A stretch of DNA of 64,000 nt from a virus (IMGVR_UViG_3300023297_000003), one strand, 5' to 3'. Positions 1,503 to 54,891 are shown, numbered from the stretch's first letter. Program-made: numbers and translations. The notes: a model not told the origin generated them from the letters alone.

Positions 1503-1675
1503 AGACGAACCCGTAGCTTGCGACCTTACCCGTGTCCTCGAAAAGTCCGCTGGCCAGGAGAGCCCTGATCAGCGGGTGTTTGATGTCGTGATGCAGGATG
1601 AAAGCATTCGGGTCCAGGGTTTGCACCAAGTCTCTTACACAGATGGAGAGGGTGGCGTAAACCGTTCCTCAAAAC

Positions 1676-3100
1676 CTACTTGAATCTACTAGGCATCAAG
1701 TTTGAAGCTGTGCCGCTGCCAGACGAATCTGATCCAACGGTAGTAAGCCTCCGGCCCAACGGTAAGGGCTCGAATGACGGTTGCTCTTTTCGCCCGAATC
1801 CCAAGGAACTGGTCCGTCGAAGACGGAATCGCTCTCTCAGCACTCGTTTTACGCCTCGTGGGTGATCACCAGTTCCAATGTGTTCGTTCCCAGAACGTCT
1901 GAGCACACCAGCACTTCCTACCCAATCAGCGTGAGCCTTCCTGCCACAACAGCGGCAACGGAACCTTATTGAACTTCGGTTTCCTCGATGAACATAACCA
2001 CAAGAAGGACACTCCTGCGACGTGTAAGCAGGGTTCACTTTCTTTGTTGGAGCCTTCCTTTCCAAGTTGATCTGTAACGCCCTGTAAGCGAACCGCTTTT
2101 GACCCCGGCAACCTCGAAGATCAAGATCTTCGACTACGAACACCGTCTCGGGATGACGGGCGATGAGGGTATTCACCACACGACCCGTTTCTGTCTTGAT
2201 CAACCCACTCAACTTGCTCTCAAGGTGATCTAACCTTGGACTGTTGTCTTTCAAATCCTGTCGTTGGCGATTTGCTCGGAGATTTCTGACACGAGCATAG
2301 AGCTTATCGAATTTGGGCTTGACGTGCTCACCATAGGTCACTCCATCTGAGGTAGCTGCAAGGACGTTCAGACCAACGTCAACGCCCAACTTAGGCCAAC
2401 CCTCCTGTGCTTCAGGAACGGCCCACTCGGCCTTGCTGACAGCTTCAAAGCGCCAGAAGCCTCGCTTGGTCTTGCGGACCGAAATGCCTTTACTGACCTG
2501 ATCAGCCTGTTGGATGTAAGGATTCCCAACGAGGGGTAACCAGACGGACTTACGAGCTTCTAACGAGGATACTCTCAGCCAGAAATCCCCGAGAGGGGCC
2601 TTCGATGTATCTTCCAATCGAGCCGTCATCTCCGACAACCTCATGGGTAGGTTGTTTCTTACGATAGGCTTATTACCTCCGTAGGTGTCCAACAGGGTGT
2701 GGTAGGCGTCGAGATGGTCTTGAGTAATAACTTTCCACGGTTTACTGATGGACTTCAATCCGATGACATAGAGTGCTTTGGCATCCTGATCGGTAAGGGT
2801 ACCGTCATGCTTAAGGTTGGTAATGGTTGGCTTCAACTTACGAGCATAAGTAGCTTTCGCCCAAGCGCTCACGATTTGTATTGCATGGTCTCGTGCGTTC
2901 TTTTCGATCTGAGACGTAAGGTTGGTGGCCCGTGGGAAGAACGTTTGTTTGGCGGCTTTCGGGAGATTATAGACCCGCTGGTCAAGCATCGTTTGTACGC
3001 AGATACGGACGTACTTGACGTAGGCATTGTGTAGGACTTCCAACTTGTCGATTTTGGACTGATTGGTATCTTTATGAAGTCGGAAGATGCGACATTTCAT
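1676..3100 (-). CDS. tnpB: TnpB (IS605 OrfB-family RuvC-like nuclease with CxxC..CxxC zinc finger)
   Basis: 474 aa; RuvC motifs, AYTSQECPSCG..CRCCGRKAHAD zinc finger; 3' end overlaps right end (omegaRNA region). Confidence 0.9.
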   Translation of the reverse strand: MKCRIFRLHKDTNQSKIDKLEVLHNAYVKYVRICVQTMLDQRVYNLPKAAKQTFFPRATNLTSQIEKNARDHAIQIVSAWAKATYARKLKPTITNLKHDGTLTDQDAKALYVIGLKSISKPWKVITQDHLDAYHTLLDTYGGNKPIVRNNLPMRLSEMTARLEDTSKAPLGDFWLRVSSLEARKSVWLPLVGNPYIQQADQVSKGISVRKTKRGFWRFEAVSKAEWAVPEAQEGWPKLGVDVGLNVLAATSDGVTYGEHVKPKFDKLYARVRNLRANRQRQDLKDNSPRLDHLESKLSGLIKTETGRVVNTLIARHPETVFVVEDLDLRGCRGQKRFAYRALQINLERKAPTKKVNPAYTSQECPSCGYVHRGNRSSIRFRCRCCGRKAHADWVGSAGVLRRSGNEHIGTGDHPRGVKRVLRERFRLRRTSSLGFGRKEQPSFEPLPLGRRLTTVGSDSSGSGTASNLMPSRFK

Positions 3101-3852
3101 TTGACTGTCTCTGCCGCTTCTGCTGCTTTCTTGGCCTTACGTCGTTCTGCCGAACGTTTGCCATAAATCTTAGCGGAGAACGACGACATGAGCGTCAAAA
3201 TGTCTTCGACCAACTCTTCCTGATAGCCTTTGCCAAGGACTTCTTGTGTCCACTCGATGGTGACACCATGACTGTTGAAGTAAGCATTGACCAGATTGAA
3301 CCCGAAGCGAGTCAGGCGGTCTTTGTGTTCAACAACCACCCTATCTATTTCATGGGCATTGACCAGTTTGAACAACTTTCGGAGTTTTGGGCGTGTGTCT
3401 GACATGCCCGACCCAACGTCTTGAAGCACTTCGACCAACTTGTACTGCTTCGTGATGCTGTGTATCGTGACCCGTCCAGCCTGACGTTCAAGATCGCCTG
3501 ACTTTTTCTGATCGTGGCTGGACACACGGCAGTAGATAACAACTCGTTCCGTTTGCTGTTTATCGATTGGGAGATTGCCCAGCAACCTGTCAATGTCTGA
3601 TTGCTTGAAACGGCGATGCCCACCCACGGTGCGAACGTGAGGGATCTTGTCTTCATCAGCCCAGTCCCGAAGCGTATTCCGGTGAACACCAAGAGCTTCG
3701 GCTGCTTTGGTGAGAGCTAGGAGACGATCAGTCAGCATCCTCATCTCCCGCATCAGGTATGGGAAACACCAGTCCTTGATCTTCAAAGACCTTGCGCCAC
3801 CTGTTGTACTGTTGTTGGAACTCTTCGACGGTAGGCACCTCATCGGGATCAA
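3097..3852 (-). CDS. tnpA: IS607-type TnpA serine recombinase (MerR-like HTH + resolvase domain); true start may be internal (~3738)
   Basis: LTKAAEALGVHRNTLRDW HTH; VIYCRVSSHDQKKSGDLERQ serine-recombinase motif; 4-bp overlap with tnpB. Confidence 0.8.
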   Translation of the reverse strand: MIPMRCLPSKSSNNSTTGGARSLKIKDWCFPYLMREMRMLTDRLLALTKAAEALGVHRNTLRDWADEDKIPHVRTVGGHRRFKQSDIDRLLGNLPIDKQQTERVVIYCRVSSHDQKKSGDLERQAGRVTIHSITKQYKLVEVLQDVGSGMSDTRPKLRKLFKLVNAHEIDRVVVEHKDRLTRFGFNLVNAYFNSHGVTIEWTQEVLGKGYQEELVEDILTLMSSFSAKIYGKRSAERRKAKKAAEAAETVK

Positions 3853-12101: not shown

Positions 12102-12413
12102 CTACTGGCGGCTCTTGGCGATGCGGATGGCGGCGTTCAGGGATATCTCCCCGGCGCAGACCTTATGGGCAATCGTGCTCTTGGTGGGCTTGGCAGTTTC
12201 GAACTCTACGTCCTCGGAGTCCAGGTCAGCGTCCTTGAAGGCCCTGGCGACCTTGACATCCCAGCAGCCAGCTTCCAACCAGAACTGTGTGTCCTCGGGG
12301 GAAAACCTTGCGGAGAGCCAGTCACGAGCGGTATCAGTCAGTTTGCTGTCGTCCCCGTAGGCGGACGTACCAGCAGCGACGAGAACGGCAACCATCTGCT
12401 GTTCCTCAAGCAT
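12102..12413 (-). CDS. hypothetical protein
   Basis: 103-aa ORF directly downstream of TnpB-like gene. Confidence 0.35.
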   Translation of the reverse strand: MLEEQQMVAVLVAAGTSAYGDDSKLTDTARDWLSARFSPEDTQFWLEAGCWDVKVARAFKDADLDSEDVEFETAKPTKSTIAHKVCAGEISLNAAIRIAKSRQ

Positions 12414-13836
12414 TGATCACTCCTGATCGTGAGGGTTTATCCGCACACGGTTGAGAGCCTCTCGACTGCAACTCGTGCCTTTTGACGGTCAGTTCCGCCG
12501 GAGAACGTGCCAACAAGATGCGTTTTACCTCTTGATAAGGGGTGAAACACCCGATGTCCTTGTCAGACAACCGGGCTAACACGTTCAGCGCAGCATTGTG
12601 ATCGGCCTGAATAACATCCCCGTTAATACGGTAAAATTTGTCTCCAACACGCTTGCCTTGCAGCAAACCCGTTACAGAGTCCATTTGCGATGTGTAAGCA
12701 CAGTTTACCAACTCATGGCTGGCTTCACGCTGCGTACAAACTGAATCGAGGGCCTCAGCAAGTGCTCCCTTTGCCCAGCCACTCATTCTTCTATTAAACC
12801 TTTTCCAAGGTCGCTTTTTTGCGATCGGAGAGGTTAAGTCTTCTGACACGACCACCGCTGCCTTATCCACGATGGCATGAGCAGCCTTAAAGGCTACACC
12901 CCGTAGTCGTGTTTGAGCCAATCGTTTACGAGCATCAATCTTTTTACACCCAAGGTTGTGTGCCCTGATGTTGTCAGCTTTTCTGGAGTTTCCGCTTTGA
13001 CGATGCTTTTTTTCTAGGGCGTACAACTTGTTTCTAGCGGAACCCGTCTTGCTGACCTTGTCGCTGTACTCAGTCATCACAGCACCGAACTGCTCACCCT
13101 GATGCTCACCATCCGAATCAACAAATGCTTCGGTGTAGCCTTTATCAACGCCCAGCGTCCGGCTACCATGCGGACGCCCACTGCTTTTATCCACGCTGTA
13201 GTGGATCTCAGTTGTACCACCCTTCACAATGATGCGTAGGTTACAGCTACTCAGATCCACACTCGTGCCGTTTGACGTTGTCGTTAGAACTATGTCGTCA
13301 CCGTATTTACGGGCAATTTGGATGACGATCGTCAGATACCCATTAACGTGCTCTATTTTGAATTTGTCGGACCTCACGATAAACTGATTTTTCGTGTGTG
13401 AGACGCCGTGCTTGAAGTGTTTACGCATTTGGCGGTGAAGGAAGGGATCCTCCATCCATGCGTCTGATCGCAGAAGCGTGTAGAGTCGTTTGCGTTCCAT
13501 TTCATTGTCGGTGCGCTGCCAAATGGCTTTGCGAACCTTTCCTTTCGCTGCTGCTTTGTAGAACAGGATGTCGTTCACGACATCTTTGGTTGTTTCGTTA
13601 CGTATGGTCCCGTCTATGGCGAGAGTGACGTAGATGCCACCTGCTACAATTTCTTTACGGATAGCCAAGGCACTTTTACCCACGTTCTTCAGGGCACCGT
13701 ACCGACGCCAGACATCTGCACGAAGAAATCTGGTAGCTCGACACACCTGCAACAAAGCAGGCGGAACATCTGCCTGAAGAATGCGAGTGACTTTCAAGAC
13801 GTCAATCCTTCGCTCTCTGTTTCCTGAGTTTCTCAA
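12406..13836 (-). CDS. divergent TnpB-like RuvC nuclease with degenerate zinc finger
   Basis: 476 aa; GVDKGYTEAFVDSDGE (RuvC-I), VVVSEDL (RuvC-II), AYTSQ..DVIQADHNAALNVLAR (RuvC-III) but only CxxxxxxxxxxC instead of CxxC..CxxC. Confidence 0.65.
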   Translation of the reverse strand: MRNSGNRERRIDVLKVTRILQADVPPALLQVCRATRFLRADVWRRYGALKNVGKSALAIRKEIVAGGIYVTLAIDGTIRNETTKDVVNDILFYKAAAKGKVRKAIWQRTDNEMERKRLYTLLRSDAWMEDPFLHRQMRKHFKHGVSHTKNQFIVRSDKFKIEHVNGYLTIVIQIARKYGDDIVLTTTSNGTSVDLSSCNLRIIVKGGTTEIHYSVDKSSGRPHGSRTLGVDKGYTEAFVDSDGEHQGEQFGAVMTEYSDKVSKTGSARNKLYALEKKHRQSGNSRKADNIRAHNLGCKKIDARKRLAQTRLRGVAFKAAHAIVDKAAVVVSEDLTSPIAKKRPWKRFNRRMSGWAKGALAEALDSVCTQREASHELVNCAYTSQMDSVTGLLQGKRVGDKFYRINGDVIQADHNAALNVLARLSDKDIGCFTPYQEVKRILLARSPAELTVKRHELQSRGSQPCADKPSRSGVINA

Positions 13837-14136: not shown

Positions 14137-14772
14137 ATGACACTTTTAGAACAGCACCGTGACCTGGCCCTCATGATCCTCGTAGGCAGGGCACTTCCCG
14201 AAGGACTGCCCTGGACCCCGGATGAGGACCAGGGCTTCGTGTCCCGTGAGCGCCTCCTGTGGGTCCAGTTGACCGAAGAGGAGCAGGCACAGGAACAGGA
14301 GGCTCTGGGGGCGCTGTGGGGCAAGCGTGGCGCTCCCCGTACCGTTCCCGTGAATCCCCAGTGGGGTGCTTGGACAGAGGGCCTCACCGAGGTCTCGATC
14401 CCTGACTCGGCGTTCGGTTTACCGGACAACGCCTTCCGCCCCTTGGTGAAGGGCATCCAGATCCTGGCCGAGGAGCACCCCGAGTTGATCGTCCTGTTAG
14501 AGTGGTTGTGGAAGCGGGGGTTCCATCCCGTTGCTTTCGATGGGGACACCCTCACGCTGCTCATCCCGCCCCACAGAATCGTCCAGGAGTCCGAGCGGCT
14601 GGTTGGGATCCTCATCCGGGACTGGCCCAAGATCCCCGTGGTGTCCCGCCCGGCGGAGGCGTCCCTGACCGTTAAGGGTTCCTATGACCCCGTGAGCGGT
14701 CAGGCGATCATCTATCTGTCAGGGGTCACGCCGTTTCAATCCACGCACCTTTTGCCAAAAGATGCGACTTAG
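14137..14772 (+). CDS. hypothetical protein
   Basis: 211-aa ORF with protein-like composition; opposite ORF 14100..14630 is R/S-rich artefact; 3' end contains SRU2. Confidence 0.5.
   Translation: MTLLEQHRDLALMILVGRALPEGLPWTPDEDQGFVSRERLLWVQLTEEEQAQEQEALGALWGKRGAPRTVPVNPQWGAWTEGLTEVSIPDSAFGLPDNAFRPLVKGIQILAEEHPELIVLLEWLWKRGFHPVAFDGDTLTLLIPPHRIVQESERLVGILIRDWPKIPVVSRPAEASLTVKGSYDPVSGQAIIYLSGVTPFQSTHLLPKDAT
14733..14768 (+). repeat. solitary CRISPR-repeat-like unit (SRU2), 30/36 identical to array repeat
   Basis: gtttcaatccacgcaccttttgccaaaagatgcgac; both handles conserved, central hairpin replaced. Confidence 0.6.
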
Positions 14773-14776
14773 GCAC

Positions 14777-15544
14777 TCAGACGTAAAACACTCTCCACTG
14801 CGTGGCGTGCTTGAAACCGTCCTCCTCGAACTGCGGTTGCGGGGGGCAGTGACAGAGGATGACGTGTTCCCGGCATCCTTCGGGGAACGCCTGGAGGATT
14901 TTTTGGTAGGAACAGTGGACGTCGTACTTGGAATCGTCCCCGTAGACCTGACAGTCCTGGAAGATGATGTCTGCGTCCTTGTCCGAGGGGTTAACGGTGT
15001 CGCCTGTGAAGTAAACCTTACGCAAGGAGGGCACCCGGATCTTGACCCCATAGACAGGGAAATCTTCGATGTTGTGATCCTCGGGGAAGAACTCCGCCGT
15101 GAAACCCTCCACCTCCAGGTCAGCACCATTCCCCAGGAAGCAGCCCTGCCAGTAGTCCAACCACACGTTAGCTGGGCCACCTGATGTCCGTGTCAACTCC
15201 ACCATCGTTTGTTCCAGCAGCACTTGGAGCTTGCTGGGGATCACGAGAGGGATCTTGCGCTTCAACATGTATTTGAAGGTGTAGGCCAGCCCGAGTAGGC
15301 CCCCAGTGTGATCGTAGTGTACGTGCGTGATGAAGATCCCCTTCAGGTTCTTCAGGGCACGCAACCCGACCAGGGTGGCGAGGGTCTCTGGTCCGCAGTC
15401 GACCAACCAGAAGGGATGGCTTTGGAGCAACTCTGGTCCGGGGATCCCTCTGGGGGCATTCGGGACGATGGCGAAGTTCGTGTTGCCCATCCCAGGGACG
15501 GGGATCCCACCACCATGACCGAGTACGATGATTGCGGTGCTCAT
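14777..15544 (-). CDS. metallo-beta-lactamase-fold hydrolase
   Basis: THVHYDHTGG (HxHxDH) motif and downstream conserved D and H residues. Confidence 0.7.
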   Translation of the reverse strand: MSTAIIVLGHGGGIPVPGMGNTNFAIVPNAPRGIPGPELLQSHPFWLVDCGPETLATLVGLRALKNLKGIFITHVHYDHTGGLLGLAYTFKYMLKRKIPLVIPSKLQVLLEQTMVELTRTSGGPANVWLDYWQGCFLGNGADLEVEGFTAEFFPEDHNIEDFPVYGVKIRVPSLRKVYFTGDTVNPSDKDADIIFQDCQVYGDDSKYDVHCSYQKILQAFPEGCREHVILCHCPPQPQFEEDGFKHATQWRVFYV

Positions 15545-16146
15545 TCGGTGTCCTCCGTGAGAAGGGCCGCAGTCTGGACGAGTTGTTCAACCACCGATTT
15601 CCGGGGCGTCCTTGTACCATCAAAACCGAGTTTTTCACAGGCAGCGAGACCGGCAGCGACGCAGTGTCCCACACGCTCCTGGAGGAGGGTGAAACCCGAA
15701 CGGCCTGAGTCGTATCCAAAAGGGTAAAGAGCACGTCCCGCCGTCAAGAGGTGGTAGCAGACGCCTTCTCGGATTGTCTCAGGAAAAGCGAGCCACCCAA
15801 GAAGTACCCTGACATGGGGCATCACCCCGGCACAGGAAATTGCAGGGTCCATTACCGTGGTGTTCATGGTGATAAAGTTTCGTTGGTAGCTCGGGAAAAG
15901 GGGGCCTGGATCCGGGAGGTTCAGGTAAATCATCGCTGCCTGATGCGCCTCCATATTGAGGAGGTGCCGTTCCTCGAACACGGGCAGCACCCCTGCGATT
16001 TCCTCCAAGATTTTCAGGTGCTCCAGTCGAGCTTTGAGAAGCTGGTGGCCCACGTACTCCTGATACTGCTGGTCGGTGTCCTCCCACGAGGGGGGAGTGG
16101 TACCCTTTTCGATGGCAATGCCTTTCTTGGTGAATTTGACGGACAT
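15541..16146 (-). CDS. hypothetical protein
   Basis: 201-aa ORF, 4-bp overlap with downstream gene. Confidence 0.45.
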   Translation of the reverse strand: MSVKFTKKGIAIEKGTTPPSWEDTDQQYQEYVGHQLLKARLEHLKILEEIAGVLPVFEERHLLNMEAHQAAMIYLNLPDPGPLFPSYQRNFITMNTTVMDPAISCAGVMPHVRVLLGWLAFPETIREGVCYHLLTAGRALYPFGYDSGRSGFTLLQERVGHCVAAGLAACEKLGFDGTRTPRKSVVEQLVQTAALLTEDTE

Positions 16147-17276: not shown

Positions 17277-17293
17277 ACAATCCCCATGGTGGA

Positions 17294-17646
17294 GGGTACT
17301 TGACAGTACCCCTCAAACTTACTAAAGTCTAACTATTCCTGCTTGAAACAGGGAGCTGTTGTGGCAGGAAGGCTTATGCTGATTGGGTAGGAGGTTCTGG
17401 TGTGCCCAGATGTTCTGGGAATGAACACACCAAAGCTGGCGATCATCCACGAGGCGTAAAACGAGTGCTGAGAGAGCGATTCCGTCTTCGACGGACCAGT
17501 TCCTTAGGATTCGGGCGATTAGAGCGGTCGTCAATCGAGCCCTTACCGTTGGGCCGGAGGTTTACTACCGAGGTACTTGGGTCACCAAGATTCGGCACAG
17601 CTTCAAACTTGATGCCTGTTACATTTTAGCAGGTTTTAAGGAACGG
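17294..17646 (+). mobile_element. 353-bp miniature TnpB-derived element (mini A): left-end hairpin + last ~80 codons of tnpB + right end
   Basis: gggtacttgacagtaccc hairpin; junction ..cctgcttgaaacaggga|gctgttgtggcagg identical in all three minis; ends ..ggaacgg. Confidence 0.7.
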
Positions 17647-17703
17647 TTGAGTACCTCCTCGGGGCAGTCAAGGATAGCAGCAGCATCGGTTCGTGTCATT
17701 GAT

Positions 17704-25292: not shown

Positions 25293-25378
25293 TGCGTTGG
25301 TCTCCTTGTCAGGGGTCATTTGCCCCCTCACTTTAACTACTCAGCAGGTCGGTGAGATGATCCCTTTTTGTCGTGCTC

Positions 25379-29090: not shown

Positions 29091-29126
29091 CGCATCCTCC
29101 CAGGGGTCATTTGCCCCTCACCTTAA

Positions 29127-32930: not shown

Positions 32931-33086
32931 CCCATTCTCCTTCTCGGGGGTCCACCCCGATGTTAGTGAGCCTTCCTCAGGCTACCCACACTACTCCAAC
33001 GGAATCTGAGATGATCAACAAAAGTTCTGGGGGTCTTTGCTCAAGGGCCGTTTCGGACACACCTTCCTTAGATCCTTACGTGCAAT

Positions 33087-33138
33087 GGGATCATCTGCTG
33101 ACCCCGCTGAGTAGAGTAAGTGAGGGGCAAATGACCCC
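33087..33138 (+). promoter_or_regulatory. conserved promoter-like motif + UTR stem-loop
   Basis: gggatcatct-N13-agtagagtaa gtgaggggcaaatgacccc. Confidence 0.5.
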
Positions 33139-33154
33139 TGAGGAGAATGAAACG

Positions 33155-34656: not shown

Positions 34657-35042
34657 GTTTCAATCCACATACCGTTCCTTAAAACCTGCTAAAATGTAAC
34701 AGGCATCAAGTTTGAAGCTGTGCCGAATCTTGGTGTCCCAAGTACCTCGGTAGTAAACTTCCGGCCCAACGGTAAGGGCTCGAATGACGGTTGCTCCTTC
34801 CGTCCGAATCCCAAGGAACTGGTCCGTTTAACACGGAATCGCTCTCTTAGCACTCGTTTTATGCCTCTCGGATGATCGTTAGTTTTGATGCGTTCGTCCC
34901 CAGAACATCTGGGCACACCAGAACCTCCTACCCAATCAGCATGAGCTTTCCTGCCGCAACAGCTCCCTGTTTCAAGCAGGAACAGTTAGACTTTAGCAGG
35001 TATGAAGGGCACTGTCAAGTACCCTTTGTCAAAGGATACGAC
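34657..35042 (+). repeat. solitary CRISPR-repeat-like unit (SRU3) split by insertion of mini element B
   Basis: left flank gtttcaatccacata (34657-34671), right flank tttgtcaaaggatacgac (35025-35042) together resemble one 36-bp repeat. Confidence 0.5.
34672..35024 (-). mobile_element. 353-bp miniature TnpB-derived element (mini B)
   Basis: same composition and deletion junction as mini A; right end ccgttcc.. at 34672, left-end hairpin gggcactgtcaagtaccc 35007-35024. Confidence 0.7.
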
Positions 35043-36054: not shown

Positions 36055-37245
36055 GTTTCAATCCACGCCCCCTCATGGGAACGACGAGGTTGTCTACACT
36101 TACTACCCTAATGTTTCAATCCACACACCCGTGAGGGAGTGACCCCTTCTGCCTCGCTGCGGTTTCGTTTCAATCCACGCATCCCCTTGTTAGATGGTAC
36201 GACGGCAGGGTTGCGCCTTCTCAGGGATCAGTCCGAATCAGCGTTTCAATCCACGCACCCCTTGTTAGAGGATGCGACGTGAGCCGACCAGCCAGTTCCC
36301 CGTAAATCGGATTTAGTTTCAATCCACGCATCCTTTTTTCAGAGGATGCGACAGTAAGGCAGGCATGGCTCGTGGGGCGCTGGCTCACTGCGTTTCAATC
36401 CACGCACCCTTTGTTAGAGGATGCGACCGGTCACCCACGGACCAGGGGTGGAGTTCGCTTACGTTTCAATCCACGCACCCTTTGTTAGAGGATGCGACTT
36501 CGCCAGCGCCTTCAGGGCGGGAGTCGCAAGGGGGATCTCGTTTCAATCCACGCACCCTTTGTTAGAGGATGCGACGCTCCAAGGGCGGACAGGAAAGGGA
36601 AGTGTCATCGGATTGTTTCAATCCACGCATCCTTTGTTAGAGGATGCGACTTGTGACCGTCATTCCTGGATTTCGCCCAACTTCGAGTTTCAATCCACGC
36701 ATCCTTTGTTAGAGGATGCGACGAGGAAGACCGTCTTGTCCCGTCGAGCAGTCCTCTGAGCGTTTCAATCCACGCATCCTTTGTTAGAGGATGCGACACG
36801 GCGTCCCCAGGCCGTGGGAGCCGTTCTGTGGGCCTGTTTCAATCCACGCATCCTTTGTTAGAGGATGCGACTTCAGCTTCCCCTCTGGATCCTTGACGGC
36901 GAGGCACTTGTTTCAATCCACGCATCCTTTGTTAGAGGATGCGACACCCACCAAGTCGCACTCGACTGGGTCGCTGTTTGAAAGTTTCAATCCACGCATC
37001 CTTTGTTAGAGGATGCGACACCACCATAGGTCGGCTTCTTCCCCGCCAGGTCCACAGTGTTTCAATCCACGCATCCTTTGTTAGAGGATGCGACTGGTGA
37101 TCTCATCCGGGGTGTCATGCGGGCAGTAACGTTTCAATCCACGCATCCTTTGTTAGAGGATGCGACTTTCCGTTGGCTTGAGCCCGCTGGACGCCTGCAC
37201 GTACTCTCTGTTTCAATCCACGCATCCTTTGTTAGAGGATGCGAC
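36055..37245 (-). CRISPR. type I-C CRISPR array, 17 repeats of 36 bp (GTCGCATCCTCTAACAAAGGATGCGTGGATTGAAAC in transcript sense), 16 spacers of 35-43 nt
   Basis: direct repeat count by eye; leader-distal repeats at 36055-36280 degenerate; perfect repeats next to cas7. Confidence 0.95.
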
Positions 37246-37441: not shown

Positions 37442-38467
37442 TTACTGGATGGCCCGGAACTCGACACCTTCCGGGAGCTTGGACTCGTCCACGGTGACAG
37501 TGTAGTCGTCGAAGGACATCGGGGCCTCTACCCCGTCCTTTTTGACCACAGTCACGATGCGTCCGTTGTCCAGCAGCTTATGGGCCGGGGCGCACCCGAG
37601 CTTGGCCTGCTGTGCCCGCTCTTCGGGGTCGTCCGCCGTCCCGACGTGCTTGAAGATGTAGATGCCCCGACAGGTCATCAAACCCTTGCTGGAGGTCCGA
37701 TCATGGTCGTACATGTTTTCCAGACCCTCGATCATCAGGGCCAGATCCTCCGCCGAGAAGCCCGTCTGTTCCGCCACGAAAGCGCTCACCGTGATGTTGG
37801 CAGCGAAGAGACCGTAGGGGATGATCGCCTTGGTTCCCATCGTGCGGAGAGCCGCCGCCTCGGCCCCGTCCTCATACTCCTGCCACTGGGCGGAGGAGAA
37901 ACCCTGATCCTTGGGGGTCTTGACCTTCTTGGGATCAGGGGAGCCCTTGGTGTCGGTCATGCGGGTGATGGTGATCTCCTGGATGGATACCGGATCGAGG
38001 GACCGGGCACTCACCACCTGGACGGGTCCACGAATCTGGCCCGCCTTGGCACCTGTGTTGAGAACACCGCCGAAGGTGCGGACATCCCAATAGTCCTGGC
38101 ACATCCGGTCACCCGCCGCCCGCTCCTCCTGCTTGGTAGCCTTCGCCGGGACGGTCCCGTGGGAGTCCTCGTGGGCCTTGGCGATGAGCCTGTTGGTACA
38201 GGTGTTCATCATCAGCAAAATCTGGTACGGGGTCTTGCCTGCCTTGCGGAGACTCACGTAGTTGCGGAGACGCCGCTTGATGGCGACGTCGGTGACGAAC
38301 CCGTGTCCCGTGTCCGGGATGGTCCGGGGCAGGTTGCCGAAGTCGGGGTCACCGTTGGGATTCCCCATCAGACAATCGAACAGGAACAAGATCTCGAACC
38401 TGTATCCGATTGCCGCCGTCCCACTCTTCAGCCACATCAAAAGATCCTTCATGATACTTCTCCTCAC
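37442..38467 (-). CDS. cas7: Cas7 (Csd2, type I-C)
   Basis: FLFDCLMGNPNGDPDFGNLPR Csd2 signature; start may be M6 (38452). Confidence 0.8.
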   Translation of the reverse strand: MRRSIMKDLLMWLKSGTAAIGYRFEILFLFDCLMGNPNGDPDFGNLPRTIPDTGHGFVTDVAIKRRLRNYVSLRKAGKTPYQILLMMNTCTNRLIAKAHEDSHGTVPAKATKQEERAAGDRMCQDYWDVRTFGGVLNTGAKAGQIRGPVQVVSARSLDPVSIQEITITRMTDTKGSPDPKKVKTPKDQGFSSAQWQEYEDGAEAAALRTMGTKAIIPYGLFAANITVSAFVAEQTGFSAEDLALMIEGLENMYDHDRTSSKGLMTCRGIYIFKHVGTADDPEERAQQAKLGCAPAHKLLDNGRIVTVVKKDGVEAPMSFDDYTVTVDESKLPEGVEFRAIQ

Positions 38468-38512
38468 TTTATGCCTAATCCAACTCTAAGGCCCACCTTA
38501 GGCCATTAGAGA

Positions 38513-40345
38513 CTATGCCTTAATCGGGGGTGTCCCTGCGGGCTTGTCCTGCTTCTTCCAGGACGAGCGCTGGTGGAGCAACCCCATGGCAAACAAAGCT
38601 TGATCCTCGATGCCGAGGCGGGTCGGAAGGTCTGTGGGCAGGCGGTCGACGATCTCCTGCCGTTTGTGATCCGCCCATCCCTTTCCCTGTCGGACGAGCT
38701 TGTTGACGTGCTTCTCGGAACGGAGCAGTAACCGGGCCAGCGCACGGGCCGGGTTCTGCATCGTTGCGGACGAGAACTGAGCAGCCAGGGCCATCGGGGG
38801 GTTCCTCCCACCGATGGCGAGGCTCTGGAGTTCGGACAGGACGGACAACAACCGCCCACACTGGTACGCCACACTCGGGTGGTCCTTGTTCAATCCTGCT
38901 TCACACATGGTGTTCCCTCTCCTGTTGATGAAGGTTTTGAGGATTCCCGGCAATGCCGGAGCGATCCCCATGTTGGTTGACGGTTTGATGGACAGGTGCA
39001 ACTGTGACCGGAACTGCACCAGGGCCTTTTTGACAATGCTCATTGGGACCGACTGGCCCCGCAGGGCTACCTGAACGAGCATCTCACGCTCCAGTTCGGA
39101 AGCTTTGCCCCTTGGGCCGTTGACAGCGGAAAGGATCTGCCAGAGTGCAGAAAGGCGGGCGATCCCCGTGTCATTGCGGTTGTTGCTGATGGTCATATCC
39201 TGATACCATCGATAGATGTTCTTGAACAGGACGGACAGGGGTCCAGTCTCCCAGTGCCGGACAGCCAACCGGGGACCGTTGCTAGAAACGATGCCCAAGG
39301 TGCAGTCCATGTCTAGGACACCTCCCGGTCCGGTGCCCGTGTCCAGGTATTCCTTCACCTTCCGGGTGGCACCCCGGAGTTCCCCATCCGTCAATCCCGA
39401 GTTCAAGAGGTCGGACATAACGTCGGACAGGATCTGGGTCCACTCGCCCCCTTCAAGAACCGGCCCTTGGCCCGCCAGCAGTCCAGCCTTCCCCGTAAGG
39501 GTTTCTCCCCTGGAACAAGCCCACACAAGGATTCGAAGATCCCCAAAGGCCGTCCCGGCGTTTTGGGCGGCATGAACCAGAGCCTGGGTCATTGTGCTCG
39601 CCGTCTGGTCTGACATCGGAGCAACGAGGCCAGACTCCTGGCCATAGTGGTGACTGGAGGTCTGCTTGGCGGCAACCAGCTTCGTCTTCGTTGTGCCGAA
39701 GGCAATGCCGTCAGGATGGATGCGGCAGGGGTTCGTGATCTCGTCCCCGGTGACGACGCAGCGGAACGTCTTATCGCTGGTCTTCTTCTTTTTGTCCGCT
39801 CCTGAAAGGTAGGTCGCCCACCACTCCCGCCATTCCTTCTTGTCCTGGAACGGGATGCCGAGTTTCTTCCCCTCGGTCTGGAAGATCACAGCCCGCTTGA
39901 GGTCTGCCTCCATCTTCGTCAGAGCCTGAACCACAAGGGCGACCTGCTCGTCGTCCTCCAGGAAGGTCTGGATGGGGGTCAGGTACTTCCGAGTGCAGGG
40001 AACCTCCTTGATGACCGTTCTGATCTGCTCCAGGAAGAGGCCCCTCTTCACCTCGTTCTTGGTGTTGTCGTGCGGTTCGGCCACGAGGAGAGGGAACACC
40101 TGGGGGACATACCCGATGAAGAAGTGAGTCTTGGGGGGCGTGGCCCTGAGCAAATTGGAGGGCACCCGAGGTGTCAGGATCGGGGAGGCCGTCTTGGTGT
40201 CCCTGAGGTGACAGTCCTGGTACTTCCCGTCCGGGGTCAGGCACACTACGGTTTCCACGACGGTCAGGTACTCGTACCCCACCGGAGCCTGCTGGGGCAT
40301 ATAGTGTGCGGCATAGTTGAGGAGGCTCTGTCCGATACCACTCAT
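38513..40345 (-). CDS. cas8c: Cas8c (Csd1) large subunit
   Basis: 610 aa between cas5c and cas7, size and position typical of Csd1; no independent motif. Confidence 0.65.
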   Translation of the reverse strand: MSGIGQSLLNYAAHYMPQQAPVGYEYLTVVETVVCLTPDGKYQDCHLRDTKTASPILTPRVPSNLLRATPPKTHFFIGYVPQVFPLLVAEPHDNTKNEVKRGLFLEQIRTVIKEVPCTRKYLTPIQTFLEDDEQVALVVQALTKMEADLKRAVIFQTEGKKLGIPFQDKKEWREWWATYLSGADKKKKTSDKTFRCVVTGDEITNPCRIHPDGIAFGTTKTKLVAAKQTSSHHYGQESGLVAPMSDQTASTMTQALVHAAQNAGTAFGDLRILVWACSRGETLTGKAGLLAGQGPVLEGGEWTQILSDVMSDLLNSGLTDGELRGATRKVKEYLDTGTGPGGVLDMDCTLGIVSSNGPRLAVRHWETGPLSVLFKNIYRWYQDMTISNNRNDTGIARLSALWQILSAVNGPRGKASELEREMLVQVALRGQSVPMSIVKKALVQFRSQLHLSIKPSTNMGIAPALPGILKTFINRRGNTMCEAGLNKDHPSVAYQCGRLLSVLSELQSLAIGGRNPPMALAAQFSSATMQNPARALARLLLRSEKHVNKLVRQGKGWADHKRQEIVDRLPTDLPTRLGIEDQALFAMGLLHQRSSWKKQDKPAGTPPIKA

Positions 40346-41013
40346 GCTGCACCCCCTGGCCGGAACACGGCGGCACTATCAGTGAACTCCGGGTAGGCCA
40401 CGGCCCCATCCTTGATCTGTGCGTGGAACACGCTGACCGAAGGATCTCCATCGGGCACCAGCAGATTGAAGGTGTCGTAGACCATCACCCCCACGTCCAC
40501 CTGAAGGTCTGCGAGTCCCTGTGATGGATCATGCTCATCCACCGGGACAAGCTGGAAGTTGGCCATAAACTCCTTGCAACCTAAGAAGGGCTGGTGGAAA
40601 CATTGGCCCCTCTCCGCCCGACGACGGAATTGGGCGTCGATGGCGTTGGTGTTCCCATCAGGATTCCGGCAGACCGCCCGTGCGAAGATGCGGTACCGGG
40701 GGTCCAGGAGAGTCCTGGTGTGCTTTTGGGTCCGGTGCTTCTGGGTTGTAAGATCAACCTGAAGAGTGCGGCGGGTGACCTTGTCTTTCATCTCGTTCCG
40801 CATGATCCCCATGTACCGGATCGGGTTCACAACCTCTACCCCGACGATCTGCCAGTAGAAGTTGGCGGACCTTTTCCAGTAGATAGCGTCGAAGATCCCC
40901 CGACAGGCTGAGTGGGTTGGGATGGGGTAGGTGGTCCGCTCCGTCACCTCTGGGCGGGAGAAGCAGGCATTGTCCCCCCACACTTCCAACCCGTGCAGCA
41001 TACCTTTTTTCAT
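40342..41013 (-). CDS. cas5: Cas5c (Cas5d) pre-crRNA endonuclease subunit
   Basis: 223 aa, N-terminal GLEVWGDNACFSRPE resembles Cas5 glycine-rich region; position upstream of cas8c. Confidence 0.7.
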   Translation of the reverse strand: MKKGMLHGLEVWGDNACFSRPEVTERTTYPIPTHSACRGIFDAIYWKRSANFYWQIVGVEVVNPIRYMGIMRNEMKDKVTRRTLQVDLTTQKHRTQKHTRTLLDPRYRIFARAVCRNPDGNTNAIDAQFRRRAERGQCFHQPFLGCKEFMANFQLVPVDEHDPSQGLADLQVDVGVMVYDTFNLLVPDGDPSVSVFHAQIKDGAVAYPEFTDSAAVFRPGGAA

Positions 41014-41107
41014 CTGTCCCTCCGTCTGTTTATCCAGCCGAGTTTCTTCGGCGGCACTTCTTACTACTCAATGAAGTCGCAAAAGGAACCCCTGTCCGCA
41101 GACTTTT

Positions 41108-43486
41108 TCATTGCACCAGCCCAAGTTCCGGGTGGTAGGCTCTTGGGTCAGTGCAGATGTACCAGCCCGTTTCGGTGATGGAGCCGTCCTTCCTTTTCAG
41201 CGTGACGGGGTCAAGGCTGAGCCAGAGGGGGTGATCCTTCTTCAGTGACAGAACAGAGACCGATAGCAGGGCCGCTCGGTTCATCCACATCCGGAAGCTT
41301 TTCCGGGTGGGCCGCTCCTTGTTGAGTTTCCTGTACTGCTCCCCACACCCTCCTTCCAGGTAGGGAACGACGACCTGGACCCCTTTGTCGGGAATGACCC
41401 GGTAGCGTCGACTGACCTTCTCGAAGGAACCCTCCTGGTACGCCTCGATGATCTTTTTGGTGGCCGGGTGATCTAGCCCTGCTTCCCGATAGAGGGCCTC
41501 ATAGTACTGGGTCAAGATTTCCGGGTTCGTCGGGTCGAGACGTTGTCCGTAGCGCCGGAGGAACCGCTCCGTGATCCGGGCAGCAGCCTGGAACCACTCG
41601 TCATGCGGGAACATGTCCTTGTATTCAACGTCCGGGCGGAAAACGAAGATGTCCCCTAGTACCCGCAAGCCCTCCCGGTTTACCCGCCCAGCGGTTTGTG
41701 CCGTCCCATCCAACGGTCCCATGGCCGGGAAGCCCCTGTTGAAGTCGAAGTCCGTCCCTGAGTTCACACAAGGAGTAGCTGCCAGAACGAAGTAGTCCCC
41801 AACGGTCTTCAACCGACGAACCACCTCTTTGAGTAGCCCCTTCCGGTGGGCTGGACACAGGTTGGAAGTCAAATAGATAGCTCGATCCGCCCCCCACCGT
41901 GTCTGTATTTCCCTCCAGGCCGCTTCCGCATGGTCCTTCCTGTTGAGAAGCACGAGGTTTGACATCCTTTCCGAACACACCCGGTCAGCCAACTGCGCCC
42001 AGGTCCACCTCTCGTCGTCGTTGTGCGGCCAGTGAAACTTGTTGCGGACCATCGCCTTGGCCGAGGCTACGGGGGCGGAGGCAATCTCCTCGTAGGGCTG
42101 GAGCGGTTCCCCCACGAGTGTTTCTACCTGAGGCAGGATGCTCTGGAAGGCAGGCTGGGTGGCCGTGGCAGACACCACCGTGACCTGATACTGACGGCTG
42201 AGTCGGTCGAGCATTGCTATTGTGGGGAGCATAAGGTGGCTGGGCAAAGACTGGCCCTCATCAAAAATGATCACGCAGTCCTGGATGTTGTGGAGTTTCC
42301 GGCATCTCCCTGGCCGATTGGAAAACAAGGACTCCAATAGTTGAACGTTCGTGGTGAGGATGATTGGTGCATCCCAGTTTTCAGTGAGCCCTCGTCGGTC
42401 AATCTCATTTGATCTACCATCCTGTTGGAGATCCTCCTCTTCGACCCACTGCGTGGCGTCCGTGTGATGCTCCAACACAAAGTGGGGACCGAAGGCCCGG
42501 TCCTTGAAAAGCTCCTTCAGGGTTTTCGCCGTCTGTTGAATGATGCTTTTGTAGGGTACAGCGATGATCACCCGTTTAAGTTGGTGGGCCTGACAGTGCG
42601 CCAGGGCGAACGAGACCAGCGCTAGAGTTTTGCCTACACCGGTGGGGGCTGTACAGGTCAAAATGCGTCCTGGAGGCCCCTGGGCGGCTCTGAGGCAGTC
42701 CTGTCGTAGACGGTCCCGTTCCTGTTGCACCACAGGGGAAGCACCATCGCTGCGTTTGCTCTTGGCACTGAGGCCGTCGATGTATTTGTTCAAAACGTCA
42801 AGGGCGAGACCGGCGTCCAACGGGGGGTTGGGACAGGTGCGCCCTGGTTTGAAGTGCTCGGCGGTGTCCAGGAAGTCGGCGTCAACGAGCGCAGAAAAGG
42901 CCATTCGGACATCCAAGCCCTTGGCAATGGACAACTGCCAGCCTTTCACCAGTTCAGAAAAAGAAAAGAAGGTCTCATCATCATTTATATTGATTTCAGG
43001 AAGCTCGATGCCATCCTCACGTAGGGGAACCAACAAGTCTTTCGCTGGCCCCGGATAGACATGGAAGACACCGGGGTTAGGATGAGTCCCGCTACCCATC
43101 GGCTGTGCAGAGGGGCGTAGGACACACCCCAAATAGACGCGTGAGAAATCCGGCAGACCCCTATGGTGTCCGGCGATCAACAGGGAAGCGAGGAGGGATC
43201 CTCGGTCGTAAGCAACCCAGGCTCCAGGTGAGGAATGATCCAGCACCCCTCGGGCTACCCCGTTCAGTACATCAGGGAACAGGGGACTGTATTTGCCGAT
43301 GTCATGCCCCCGGCTGGCGAAAGAAACCTCTCTGACGTGCTGGGGTGGGAAGTGGGTGCCCAGGAAACGGAGAGTCAGCGCTTCAACCCCCAACAGATGT
43401 TCCACCATCGTTTGGACCTTGCCGGTTACTTTGCTGGCGCTGTGGGCTATTCGGTTCCAGTTGGGCATCTGTCCCCCCCTATACAC
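41108..43486 (-). CDS. cas3: Cas3 HD nuclease-helicase
   Basis: N-terminal HD (HDIGKYSP, HHRGLPDF), Walker A TCTAPTGVGKT, DExx IFDEGQ. Confidence 0.85.
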   Translation of the reverse strand: MYRGGQMPNWNRIAHSASKVTGKVQTMVEHLLGVEALTLRFLGTHFPPQHVREVSFASRGHDIGKYSPLFPDVLNGVARGVLDHSSPGAWVAYDRGSLLASLLIAGHHRGLPDFSRVYLGCVLRPSAQPMGSGTHPNPGVFHVYPGPAKDLLVPLREDGIELPEININDDETFFSFSELVKGWQLSIAKGLDVRMAFSALVDADFLDTAEHFKPGRTCPNPPLDAGLALDVLNKYIDGLSAKSKRSDGASPVVQQERDRLRQDCLRAAQGPPGRILTCTAPTGVGKTLALVSFALAHCQAHQLKRVIIAVPYKSIIQQTAKTLKELFKDRAFGPHFVLEHHTDATQWVEEEDLQQDGRSNEIDRRGLTENWDAPIILTTNVQLLESLFSNRPGRCRKLHNIQDCVIIFDEGQSLPSHLMLPTIAMLDRLSRQYQVTVVSATATQPAFQSILPQVETLVGEPLQPYEEIASAPVASAKAMVRNKFHWPHNDDERWTWAQLADRVCSERMSNLVLLNRKDHAEAAWREIQTRWGADRAIYLTSNLCPAHRKGLLKEVVRRLKTVGDYFVLAATPCVNSGTDFDFNRGFPAMGPLDGTAQTAGRVNREGLRVLGDIFVFRPDVEYKDMFPHDEWFQAAARITERFLRRYGQRLDPTNPEILTQYYEALYREAGLDHPATKKIIEAYQEGSFEKVSRRYRVIPDKGVQVVVPYLEGGCGEQYRKLNKERPTRKSFRMWMNRAALLSVSVLSLKKDHPLWLSLDPVTLKRKDGSITETGWYICTDPRAYHPELGLVQ

Positions 43487-53129: not shown

Positions 53130-53217
53130 TGAGTCAGACCATTTCTATCGACCGGATCCAGGTGTTGCACTTCGCTGACGGGGTAGATCGGGTGGAAATC
53201 CTCACGGACAAACCCTA

Positions 53218-54855: not shown

Positions 54856-54891
54856 ATTTCAATCCACGCATCCATTTCTAAAGGACACGAC
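54856..54891 (+). repeat. solitary CRISPR-repeat-like unit (SRU1), 29/36 identical to array repeat
   Basis: atttcaatccacgcatccatttctaaaggacacgac; 3' handle (transcript sense GGATGCGTGGATTGAAAT) conserved, 5' stem arm lost. Confidence 0.55.

What the first reader, a model, noticed from the sequence alone, without database searches (positions are those of the whole stretch)
14733..14768. Solitary CRISPR-repeat-like unit SRU2, 21 kb from the array, with conserved handles and a swapped hairpin
The sequence gtttcaatccacgcaccttttgccaaaagatgcgac matches the array repeat at 30 of 36 positions. The first 15 nt and last 9 nt are intact. The repeat stem GCATCC/GGATGC is replaced by a different self-complementary core (cttttgccaaaag). 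It has the same orientation as the array. In crRNA sense it begins 8 nt after the stop codon of the minus-strand MBL-hydrolase gene (14777..15544), and it also forms the last 13 codons of the plus-strand gene 14137..14772. There is no second repeat or spacer nearby. Together with SRU1 and SRU3 this shows a recurring placement of single repeat units at convergent gene ends. Possible roles are an RNA decoy for Cas5c/Cascade (RNA anti-CRISPR-like), a crRNA-like regulatory RNA, a Cas5c-dependent 3'-end processing site, or a recombination relic.
Basis: seen in the sequence. Interest (0 to 1): 0.75.

Follow-up and report, generated by a model that had tools for sequence, protein, structure and literature searches.

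The report
Lone CRISPR repeat in giant phage
A single, intact-looking copy of a type I-C CRISPR repeat sits 8 bases after an anti-defence-like gene in a ~528-kb phage that also carries its own matching CRISPR system; it is most likely a repeat-mimic RNA of a kind already described in phages, and what it does next to a matching phage-encoded system is untested.

Summary
14733-14768 matches the 36-nt array repeat at 30/36 positions (31/36 to the older array variant), and no shuffle of the window produced such a match. The crRNA sense is the minus strand. All six differences fall in the inner stem and loop, and pairing is kept (one C-G to U-A swap). The parts that published Cas5c work names as recognition determinants are unchanged: the 2-nt 5' overhang, the stem base, UGG and the 11-nt handle.

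The window is part of a ~528-kb phage contig. It carries cas3-cas5c-cas8c-cas7 and an array but no cas1/2/4. SRU2 lies 8 nt after the stop of a hydrolase whose family profile matches Apyc1 (anti-Pycsar) structures at E 1e-49 to 1e-55. This resembles the published acrIC5-racrIC1 pair. SRU2 also encodes the disordered, non-conserved tail of the convergent gene.

SRU2 is identical in a relative whose flanking genes differ by about 6%. It is absent from relatives at 73% protein identity or below, where the two genes overlap.

Best reading: a Racr-like solitary repeat RNA co-transcribed with an anti-defence gene (confidence about 0.4). Rivals: neutral relic, single-repeat crRNA-like guide, Cas5c-dependent mRNA end processing. 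This is a new variant of a known kind, of moderate interest.

The parts
14733..14768 (-). SRU2: solitary 36-nt type I-C repeat unit. crRNA sense: GUCGCAUCUUUUGGCAAAAGGUGCGUGGAUUGAAAC.
   Evidence: 30/36 to the array repeat; none in shuffles; scores 13.9 bits to Rfam CRISPR-DR9 on the minus strand, the same as true array repeats.
14733..14743 (-). 11-nt 3' overhang UGGAUUGAAAC. It would become the crRNA 5' handle and is identical to the array repeats.
   Evidence: unpaired 11 nt. Cas5c recognition centres on U-G-G after the cut site and on the 3' overhang.
14744..14766 (-). Hairpin with a 10-bp stem and 3-nt loop. It holds all six differences from the array repeat, including a compensatory C-G to U-A swap.
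14777..15544 (-). Apyc1-family MBL-fold (metallo-beta-lactamase-type) phosphodiesterase gene. Its stop codon lies 8 nt upstream of SRU2 in the crRNA sense.
   Evidence: Lactamase_B_2; Apyc1 model 30 bits, below the cut-off of 50. (best solved relatives are 7T28/7U2S/7U2R). (family profile against the Apyc1 structures, E 3e-55 to 4e-49, full length).
15541..16146 (-). 201-aa gene of unknown function. It overlaps the MBL start by 4 nt, so it is probably in the same operon as SRU2.
   Evidence: No Pfam or PADLOC hit.
14137..14772 (+). Convergent 211-aa gene, found in the database search only in unnamed metagenome contigs (up to about 530 kb). Its last 12 codons are encoded by SRU2.
   Evidence: family core ends at ...LSG; tails are variable. 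(residues 201-211 have pLDDT below 50). (no structural relative).
36055..37245 (-). CRISPR array: fifteen 36/37-nt repeats, plus two 32-nt I-C-type units at the trailer end.
37442..43486 (-). cas3 (41108-43486), cas5c (40342-41013), cas8c (38513-40345), cas7 (37442-38467). No cas1/2/4 is present.
54856..54891 (-). SRU3: second solitary unit (29/36). It starts right after the stop of the DUF3228 gene on the + strand and lies 5 nt after the stop of the 60-aa ORF downstream of thyX on the minus strand.
34657..35042 (-). SRU1: a repeat unit split into 34657-34670 and about 35023-35042 by a 355-bp IS607/TnpB-derived mini element (34671-35025).

Best explanation
SRU2 is a genuine solitary type I-C CRISPR repeat unit. 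It is transcribed on the minus strand as the 3' tail of an operon that ends with an Apyc1-family (anti-Pycsar-like) hydrolase gene. In that sense it folds into the canonical I-C layout: a 2-nt overhang, a hairpin, and the 11-nt UGGAUUGAAAC overhang. It is therefore bound and cut by Cas5c at the 3' base of the hairpin. The most likely role is a Racr-type repeat mimic. The RNA would load Cas5c, and then Cas7, onto a guide-less or self-derived RNA, and so draw Cascade subunits of a compatible I-C system away from productive crRNAs. Shown here: the sequence, the fold, the retained determinants, the genomic position, and the conservation and indel pattern. Inferred: transcription, Cas5c binding and cleavage, and the inhibitory effect. 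Also undetermined is which system is affected, the host's or the phage's own.
For: 1. The unit matches the array repeat far beyond chance.
2. All six differences lie in + positions 16-28. By my calculation the chance of that under random placement is C(13,6)/C(36,6) = 9e-4. The differences keep or extend pairing only in the minus-sense RNA: -10.4 kcal/mol against -6.7 on the + strand. Across the array variants and the three solitary units, 93% of cells are paired, with two double-sided swaps.
3. The unchanged parts are the ones reported to matter for Cas5c: the stem base, U-G-G and the 3' overhang. The loop is reported to be tolerant of change (PMC8524198).
4. The phage encodes a Cas5c homologous to solved pre-crRNA endonucleases at E 8e-31.
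5. The unit lies 8 nt after the stop of a gene whose family profile matches Apyc1 structures at E 3e-55 to 4e-49 (single sequence 4e-10). The published RacrIC1 lies 11 nt after acrIC5 and is co-transcribed with it, and racr genes cluster with anti-defence genes (PMC10651486).
6. No promoter-like site of its own lies upstream, which fits read-through from the operon.
7. The unit is 100% identical in a relative from three samples. That relative's syntenic 2.1 kb differs at 127 positions (6%), but there are no differences in 14692-14815.
8. The + gene tolerates the unit because the SRU-encoded residues form a non-conserved, disordered tail.
Against: - There are no expression or binding data.
- The phage carries a cognate cas3-cas5c-cas8c-cas7 module and array 22 kb away, so a decoy would also tax its own system. 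Published Racrs are described as not associated with cas genes.
- Identity to the nearest known repeat is 83-86%, below the 90% used by SRUFinder, and the unit overlaps a coding sequence.
- In a 121-nt context the local hairpin is not the minimum-energy fold, and the region is not unusually stable (z = +1.5).
- The identical 124-nt block in the relative could be a recombination tract. Other blocks of 150 nt and more than 470 nt are also identical.
- One of the three units (SRU1) is split by a mobile element, so not every unit is protected by selection.
- The unit is absent from relatives at 73% protein identity or below.
- The Apyc1 Pfam model scores below its cut-off on the single sequence (30 bits against 50).
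Confidence: 0.4

Rival explanations
1. Neutral relic. One repeat unit was copied from an array, past or present, into a site that tolerates insertions: a convergent gene junction. It has no function of its own. Its repeat-like pattern of conservation was inherited from the source repeat.
For: - The unit is absent from relatives at 73% protein identity or below, where the two genes simply overlap by 8 nt. SRU3 behaves the same way.
- Convergent junctions are the places where insertions do least harm.
- SRU1 has been split by a mobile element.
- All three solitary units share U at crRNA-sense position 11, where every array repeat has C. This suggests a common source variant rather than in-place selection.
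- No further unit was found in 17 kb of extra flanking sequence.
- The identical block in the close relative may be a recombination tract.
Against: - Six differences, none in the 23 determinant positions (p about 9e-4 if they arose in place), with pairing kept only in the crRNA sense.
- There is no change in a lineage whose flanking genes differ by 6%.
- Three units lie within 40 kb. The two intact ones stand 5-8 nt after the stop codon of the upstream minus-strand gene, and the split one 29 nt after.
- No known process inserts exactly one repeat unit without spacer remnants.
Confidence: 0.25
2. Single-repeat crRNA-like guide (crlRNA or Cracr type). Cas5c cuts SRU2 and leaves the 11-nt handle on the downstream RNA (GGCGUGACCCCUGACAG...). 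That RNA assembles a Cascade, which binds a partly matching, PAM-flanked promoter in the host or phage and represses it.
For: Type I-C loci make working crlRNAs from a single repeat-like unit. These carry an 11-nt 5' handle and a 16-bp match next to a TTC PAM (preprint 10.1101/2024.12.27.630466). Phages encode such RNAs against host cas or toxin promoters, including I-C (preprint 10.1101/2024.10.29.618823). SRU2 keeps everything needed to generate the handle.
Against: - No TTC-flanked site with at least 11 of 15 seed matches exists in the 81 kb of phage DNA available, for SRU1, SRU2, SRU3 or the two short trailer spacers.
- The would-be spacer is the antisense of a conserved coding segment (...IYLSGV), so its sequence is constrained by the protein.
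- There is no defined 3' hairpin.
- The host genome and the other 447 kb of the phage could not be searched.
Confidence: 0.12
3. Cis-acting mRNA processing site. The phage's own Cas5c cuts read-through transcripts at solitary repeats placed at operon ends. The upstream mRNA gains a hairpin-capped 3' end, and the antisense read-through into the convergent gene is severed.
For: - SRU2 and SRU3 both sit at the rare convergent junctions, 8 nt and 5 nt after the stop of the minus-strand gene (gene calls).
- No intrinsic terminator is predicted at either junction.
- Cognate Cas5c is encoded in cis.
- In relatives the convergent genes overlap, so transcription would collide there.
Against: No natural precedent was found; only engineered uses of Csy4 came up (PMC4604432, listed). 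Only two or three sites exist in 81 kb, while most operon ends have none. SRU1 is not at a convergent junction and is disrupted. Either orientation at a convergent junction would look 'downstream of a gene'.
Confidence: 0.13
4. Cas-independent hairpin. It would act as a terminator or 3'-end stabiliser for the convergent genes and only happens to derive from a repeat.
For: It forms a stable local hairpin (-10.4 kcal/mol) at a convergent junction.
Against: No U-tract follows the hairpin on either strand, and the terminator scan does not call it. This model does not explain the perfect conservation of the 11-nt single-stranded handle. The hairpin is weak on the + strand.
Confidence: 0.05

Closest known systems
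RacrIC1 and other RNA anti-CRISPRs (solitary repeat units of phages; Camara-Wilpert et al. 2023, PMC10651486)
   Same: A solitary copy of a type I-C repeat on a phage. The hairpin and handle are preserved. It lies a few nt downstream of an anti-defence-type gene (8 nt here; 11 nt after acrIC5 for RacrIC1), so it is probably co-transcribed with that gene.
   Different: The phage itself encodes the cognate cas3-cas5c-cas8c-cas7 module and an array with the same handles. The unit overlaps the 3' end of a coding sequence. Its identity to any known repeat is 83-86%. The upstream gene is Apyc1-like (anti-Pycsar), not an Acr. Nothing has been tested experimentally.
Single-repeat type I-C crlRNAs (the Nezha-regulating SRU; preprint 10.1101/2024.12.27.630466) and viral Cracr RNAs (preprint 10.1101/2024.10.29.618823)
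   Same: One repeat-like unit would be processed by Cas5c to leave an 11-nt 5' handle on the downstream RNA. Such RNAs can be encoded by phages.
   Different: Those RNAs have a spacer-like segment with about 16 bp of PAM-flanked complementarity to a promoter, and they usually sit inside or next to cas operons. No such target was found for SRU2. SRU2 is 22 kb from the cas genes, and its downstream sequence is the antisense of a coding region.
Type I-C CRISPR array repeat
   Same: The layout is 2-nt overhang, hairpin, 11-nt UGGAUUGAAAC. SRU2 scores the same against Rfam CRISPR-DR9 as the true repeats of this array.
   Different: It has no spacer, no second repeat and no leader. The unit is 36 nt with a 10-bp stem, not the common 32-nt form.
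CRISPR systems of huge phages that lack adaptation genes (Al-Shayeb et al. 2020, PMC7162821)
   Same: A ~528-kb phage contig with a type I-C variant lacking cas1/cas2/cas4 and a compact array.
   Different: The passages of that paper returned by my term search do not mention dispersed solitary repeats. Here Cas3 aligns across the HD motifs of solved I-C Cas3 proteins, whereas that paper describes a helicase in place of Cas3.

Membership tests
Type I-C CRISPR repeat (as an RNA substrate of Cas5c) | A 2-nt 5' overhang, a stem-loop, and an 11-nt 3' overhang | tested here: met
   The fold is ..((((((((((...)))))))))).........., the same register as the array repeats. The layout is described in PMC8524198.
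Type I-C CRISPR repeat (as an RNA substrate of Cas5c) | U-G-G immediately 3' of the cut site, and a conserved handle ...AUUGAAAC | tested here: met
   UGGAUUGAAAC is identical to all array repeats.
Type I-C CRISPR repeat (as an RNA substrate of Cas5c) | Cleaved by the cognate Cas5c | not testable with these tools
   A Cas5c homologue is present. No biochemistry was possible.
CRISPR array | Two or more repeats separated by spacers | tested here: not met
   No other unit or half-unit lies within about 20 kb.
Racr (RNA anti-CRISPR) / SRU as defined by SRUFinder | A solitary repeat-like unit on a phage or plasmid, with no repeat within 100 bp | tested here: met
   The phage context rests.
Racr (RNA anti-CRISPR) / SRU as defined by SRUFinder | Intergenic, with at least 90% identity and 90% coverage to a catalogued repeat | tested here: not met
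   Identity to this phage's own array is 83-86%. The unit overlaps the last 12 codons of gene 14137-14772.
Racr (RNA anti-CRISPR) / SRU as defined by SRUFinder | Not associated with cas genes on the same element | tested here: not met
   A cognate cas operon and array lie at 36-43.5 kb in the same window.
Racr (RNA anti-CRISPR) / SRU as defined by SRUFinder | Expressed as an RNA that binds Cas proteins and inhibits interference | not testable with these tools
   No transcript or binding data are available.
Racr (RNA anti-CRISPR) / SRU as defined by SRUFinder | Frequently next to anti-defence genes (a supportive feature, not a defining one) | tested here: met
   The upstream gene belongs to the Apyc1 family by profile, but the single sequence scores below the Pfam cut-off.
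crlRNA / CreR / Cracr regulatory mini-array | A spacer-like segment with a PAM-flanked partial match (about 9-16 bp) to a promoter | tested here: inconclusive
   No site with TTC and at least 11 of 15 seed matches in 81 kb. The rest of the phage and the host could not be searched.
crlRNA / CreR / Cracr regulatory mini-array | Located within or beside a cas operon (bacterial forms) | tested here: not met
   SRU2 lies 22 kb from cas7.
Intrinsic terminator | A G+C-rich hairpin followed by a U-tract | tested here: not met
   The scan does not call it, and no T-run follows on either strand.
Apyc1 (anti-Pycsar nuclease), for the neighbouring gene | Pfam PF23023 at or above its gathering score | tested here: not met
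   30.2 bits against a cut-off of 50.
Apyc1 (anti-Pycsar nuclease), for the neighbouring gene | Full-length similarity to solved Apyc1 structures, with the MBL metal-binding motifs | tested here: met
   Single sequence E 4e-10. Profile of 36 homologues E 3e-55, 4e-50 and 4e-49 over residues 3-250, against 7e-25 for RNase Z. H74, H76, D78, H79, H157, D182 and H232 are invariant.

The most novel reading that the evidence does not exclude
The phage has co-opted its own adaptation-less type I-C module, and Cas5c in particular, together with dispersed solitary repeats as a gene-expression device. Repeats placed a few nucleotides after the last stop codon of an operon would be Cas5c cleavage sites. 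They would define hairpin-capped mRNA 3' ends and cut off antisense read-through at convergent gene junctions. The released handle-bearing RNAs might also load Cascade. This would be a natural CRISPR-endoribonuclease-based system for mRNA processing or insulation in a virus.
Probability: 0.1. Interest if true: 0.8.

Novelty: new variant of a known kind. Interest (0 to 1): 0.45.

Why it matters
Solitary repeat units are a recently recognised class of RNA anti-CRISPRs and regulators. Known cases sit on phages that lack cas genes and mimic the host's repeats. Here the mimic and a complete cognate interference module are on the same giant phage genome. This raises a concrete, testable question: how does a CRISPR-carrying phage use, or tolerate, repeat decoys? 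Possible answers include self-regulation, discrimination between host and phage Cas5c, and mRNA processing.

The unit is tightly joined to an Apyc1-family gene. That would extend the 'anti-defence genes travel with repeat mimics' rule beyond Acr proteins.

The case also shows that searches restricted to intergenic matches of at least 90% identity will miss units like this one.

Tried and rejected
1. Phage databases. A distant DNA search of 12-18 kb against INPHARED found nothing. Scans of IMG/VR with the repeat pattern, with Cas7 and with the SRU2 core found only an unrelated solitary I-C unit on a 16-kb viral contig, L001 (the same contig appears in a Turicibacter MAG, L003). This phage is not in those sets.

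2. Metagenome scan. My pattern (TTTCAATCCACGC-N18-CGAC) was badly chosen. I therefore could not search the whole 528-kb genome or host arrays.

3. Genome scan. It gave one Verrucomicrobia MAG array with 36-nt repeats, the same handles and different hairpins. No repeat with the SRU2 hairpin was found there, in the fetched loci, or in INPHARED or PLSDB.

4. Cas7 relatives. The best are only about 52% identical and bacterial, so there was no sister phage system to compare.

5. Part of the neighbouring TnpB element? Rejected. Relatives have the 211-aa gene without the element, so the element's boundary lies upstream of 14137.

6. Targets of the flanking 'pseudo-spacers'. A 14-nt match to cas3 and a 12-nt match to a promoter-like motif do not extend and have no PAM. 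The PAM-aware seed scan was empty.

7. Rfam. It found only a tRNA at gathering threshold. CRISPR-DR hits are sub-threshold for SRU2 and for the true repeats alike.

8. Function of the 211-aa protein. The model is confident (pLDDT 83) but has no structural relative in the PDB. It has no Pfam, PHROG or PADLOC hit.

9. Population variation. Three loci from other samples are identical over 5.0-6.6 kb, so they are uninformative.

Full report
OBSERVATION. The 36-nt sequence is at 14733-14768 as stated. The window holds a CRISPR array at 36055-37245 whose leader-proximal repeat is GTTTCAATCCACGCATCCTTTGTTAGAGGATGCGAC. SRU2 matches it at 30/36 positions, and it matches the older in-array variant (GCACCC) at 31/36. 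Neither the full sequence nor the two-handle pattern occurred in 100 dinucleotide-preserving shuffles. A scan for units with at least 21 of 36 matches found only four things: the array, SRU2, SRU3 (54856-54891, 29/36), and two half-units at 34657 and 35007-35042. Two details need correcting. The last 8 nt are intact, not 9. The stem is remodelled rather than replaced.

ORIENTATION AND ANATOMY. The repeat read on the minus strand ends in GUGGAUUGAAAC, the type I-C signature. The genes cas3, cas5c, cas8c and cas7 are on the minus strand directly upstream of the array, and the degenerate repeats are at the far end. The crRNA sense is therefore the minus strand. In that sense the array repeat, SRU2 and SRU3 all fold in the same register: a 2-nt overhang, a hairpin over nt 3-25, and an 11-nt overhang. 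Their energies are -11.7, -10.4 and -8.1 kcal/mol. On the + strand the two solitary units fold poorly, at -6.7 and -2.7 kcal/mol, against -13.9 for the array repeat.

All six differences in SRU2 lie in + positions 16-28. By my calculation the chance of that under random placement is 9e-4. One pair is swapped on both sides (C-G to U-A). A C/A mismatch in the array repeat becomes a U-A pair. One U-A pair becomes a U-G wobble, a state that the older array repeats also have. I counted pairs across three array variants, SRU2, SRU3 and a reconstructed SRU1. In that set 93% of cells pair and two pairs carry double-sided changes; 37 of 500 shuffles did as well, so the support is modest. Published work on Cas5c places recognition on the stem base, on the U-G-G after the cut and on the 3' overhang, and reports that the loop tolerates change (PMC8524198). 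The conserved parts of SRU2 are exactly these. Rfam's CRISPR-DR9 model scores SRU2 on the minus strand at 13.9 bits, the same as true array repeats. All are below the family threshold.

GENOMIC SETTING. The identical 211-aa protein occurs on contigs of up to 528 kb (JGI 3300025697, Ga0208769_1000001). The gene content is phage-like: NAD-dependent ligase, ThyX, HNH endonucleases, IS607/TnpB elements and many unknown ORFs. The I-C module lacks cas1, cas2 and cas4, as reported for CRISPR systems of huge phages (PMC7162821). Cas5c is homologous to solved pre-crRNA endonucleases (E 8e-31), and Cas3 aligns across its HD motifs.

SRU2 sits between convergent genes. On the minus strand the upstream gene (14777-15544) is an MBL-fold (metallo-beta-lactamase-type) hydrolase with an intact HxHxDH motif. 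Its best solved relatives are the Apyc1 anti-Pycsar nucleases (E 4e-10). A profile of 36 homologues matches them at E 3e-55 to 4e-49 over the full length, against 7e-25 for RNase Z. The single sequence is nevertheless below Pfam's Apyc1 cut-off. This gene overlaps the preceding 201-aa gene by 4 nt, so SRU2 is the 3' tail of a minus-strand operon. No sigma-70-like promoter or intrinsic terminator is predicted next to it.

On the + strand, gene 14137-14772 reads through the unit. Across 15 homologues the conserved core ends at ...LSG, and the tails vary from 0 to 16 residues. In an AlphaFold model (pLDDT 83) residues 201-211 are disordered. The coding overlap is therefore a tolerated by-product.

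COMPARATIVE EVIDENCE. Relatives with 73%, 68%, 60% and 55% identity in the 211-aa protein have no repeat-like unit. In the closest of these, the 204-aa gene and the MBL gene overlap by 8 nt, so SRU2 with its immediate flanks is a lineage-specific insertion of about 50 nt.

A closer relative was recovered through the MBL protein (89% identity; three samples). It has the same arrangement and an identical SRU2. Across 2,081 syntenic nt the two phages differ at 127 positions (6%), but there are no differences between 14692 and 14815. Divergence along this alignment is patchy, with identical blocks of 150 nt and more than 470 nt elsewhere. This result is therefore compatible with purifying selection without proving it.

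SRU3 shows the same pattern. It is unchanged in a strain with 3 SNPs in 2.4 kb, and it is absent from a 67%-identity relative in which the convergent genes overlap by 4 nt. Extending the contig by 17 kb beyond the window found no further unit.

THE THIRD UNIT. The half-units at 34657-34670 and about 35023-35042 flank a 355-bp element. This element is a deletion derivative (left end plus right end/omega-RNA region) of the IS607-type TnpA/TnpB elements at 1661-3170 and 44261-45775. Other copies lie at 17293-17652 and 53212-53570. If the 3-4 nt ACC(C) shared by the element end and the repeat is counted once, the flanks join into a 36-nt unit, GTTTCAATCCACATACCCTTTGTCAAAGGATACGAC. That unit matches the older array variant at 31/36 and has its own compensatory C-G to U-A swap. 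SRU1 was thus a full unit that a mobile element has since split. All three solitary units share U at crRNA-sense position 11, where every array repeat has C. This points to a common source variant or to a shared preference for a longer stem.

MECHANISM. The known precedents are these:
- Racrs are solitary repeat mimics of phages. One example is RacrIC1, which lies 11 nt after acrIC5 and is co-transcribed with it (PMC10651486).
- Single-repeat type I-C crlRNAs are cut by Cas5c to leave an 11-nt handle, and they repress promoters through a 16-bp, TTC-flanked match (preprint 10.1101/2024.12.27.630466).
- Viral Cracr RNAs are the phage-encoded counterparts (preprint 10.1101/2024.10.29.618823).

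SRU2 fits the first best: it keeps the determinants, has no partner repeat, and follows an anti-defence-type gene by 8 nt. For the second and third I found no PAM-flanked target in the 81 kb available. The host and 85% of the phage genome could not be searched. The main difficulty for a decoy role is that the phage's own cognate system would be affected too. A cis role in mRNA 3'-end processing at convergent junctions and a neutral relic both remain open. A Cas-independent terminator is unlikely: there is no U-tract, and that model would not explain the conserved single-stranded handle.

VERDICT. The element is a solitary type I-C repeat unit that keeps all the sequence determinants reported for Cas5c recognition. 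It sits in an unusual setting: a giant phage with its own cognate effector module, with the unit fused to the 3' end of an Apyc1-family operon and overlapping a coding tail. It belongs to a known kind (SRU, Racr or crlRNA) and is a new variant of it. I put about 0.4 on a Racr-like role, about 0.25 on a relic, and the rest on guide-like, processing or terminator roles.

Noticed in passing
window 34657-35042: A third solitary repeat unit is split by a 355-bp IS607/TnpB-derived mini element (34671-35025). The flanks rejoin into a 36-nt unit that matches the older array repeat at 31/36 and has a compensatory C-G to U-A swap. The flank next to the element's omega-RNA end is the repeat handle.
   Followed up: partly
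window 17293-17652, 34671-35025, 53212-53570; full copies 1661-~3170 and 44261-45775: A MITE-like family (63-nt left end plus about 300-nt right end/omega-RNA region) derived from IS607-type elements. The full copy at 1661 has a 213-aa resolvase-type TnpA and a 474-aa TnpB. A further TnpB (12406-13836), with a 61-aa HTH remnant, sits between genes that are adjacent in relatives.
   Followed up: partly
window 36055-36166: The array trailer ends with two 32-nt canonical I-C-type units that have different hairpins, followed by unusually short spacers of 26 and 22 nt. This could be a hybrid array or a Cracr/crlRNA-like mini-array. No TTC-flanked target was found in 81 kb.
   Followed up: partly
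window, e.g. 25324-25366, 29114-29156, 33086-33146, 57606-57666: A promoter-like motif, GGGATCATC-N~17-GAGTAG-N-GTGAGGGGCAAATGACCCC, occurs in at least 13 long copies. Its core GGATCATC occurs 23 times against 2.9 expected, and its strand follows the direction of the genes. It is probably a phage-specific promoter plus 5'-UTR hairpin.
   Followed up: partly
window 14733-14768, 54856-54891, 34657/35023-35042: All three solitary units carry U at crRNA-sense position 11 (an extra U-A pair), where every array repeat has C. This suggests a common source variant or selection for a longer stem.
   Followed up: partly
window 37442-43486: The type I-C module consists of cas3-cas5c-cas8c-cas7 only, with no cas1/2/4. 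The nearest Cas7 relatives are only about 52% identical and are bacterial (several named hits are from Methylococcaceae). Cas3 keeps its HD motifs.
   Followed up: partly
L004 4915-5400 (Verrucomicrobia MAG QHPC01000165.1): An array of 36-nt repeats with the same handles as this phage, but with several different hairpin sequences within one array. This is a possible relative of the host's system.
   Followed up: no
L001 269-304 (IMGVR_UViG_2820303403_000002; same contig as the Turicibacter MAG locus L003): A solitary 36-nt I-C-type unit in an intergenic region of a 16-kb viral contig, just after a terminator-like hairpin. It looks like a typical Racr candidate.
   Followed up: no
window 44002-44073: A tRNA-Ile (GAU) gene lies between the ORF upstream of cas3 and a TnpB element.
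   Followed up: no
window 14795-14808 and 42446-42459: A 14-nt identical stretch (ACGCCACGCAGTGG) is shared by the 3' end of the MBL gene and cas3, on the same strand. It does not extend and is probably chance.
   Followed up: yes
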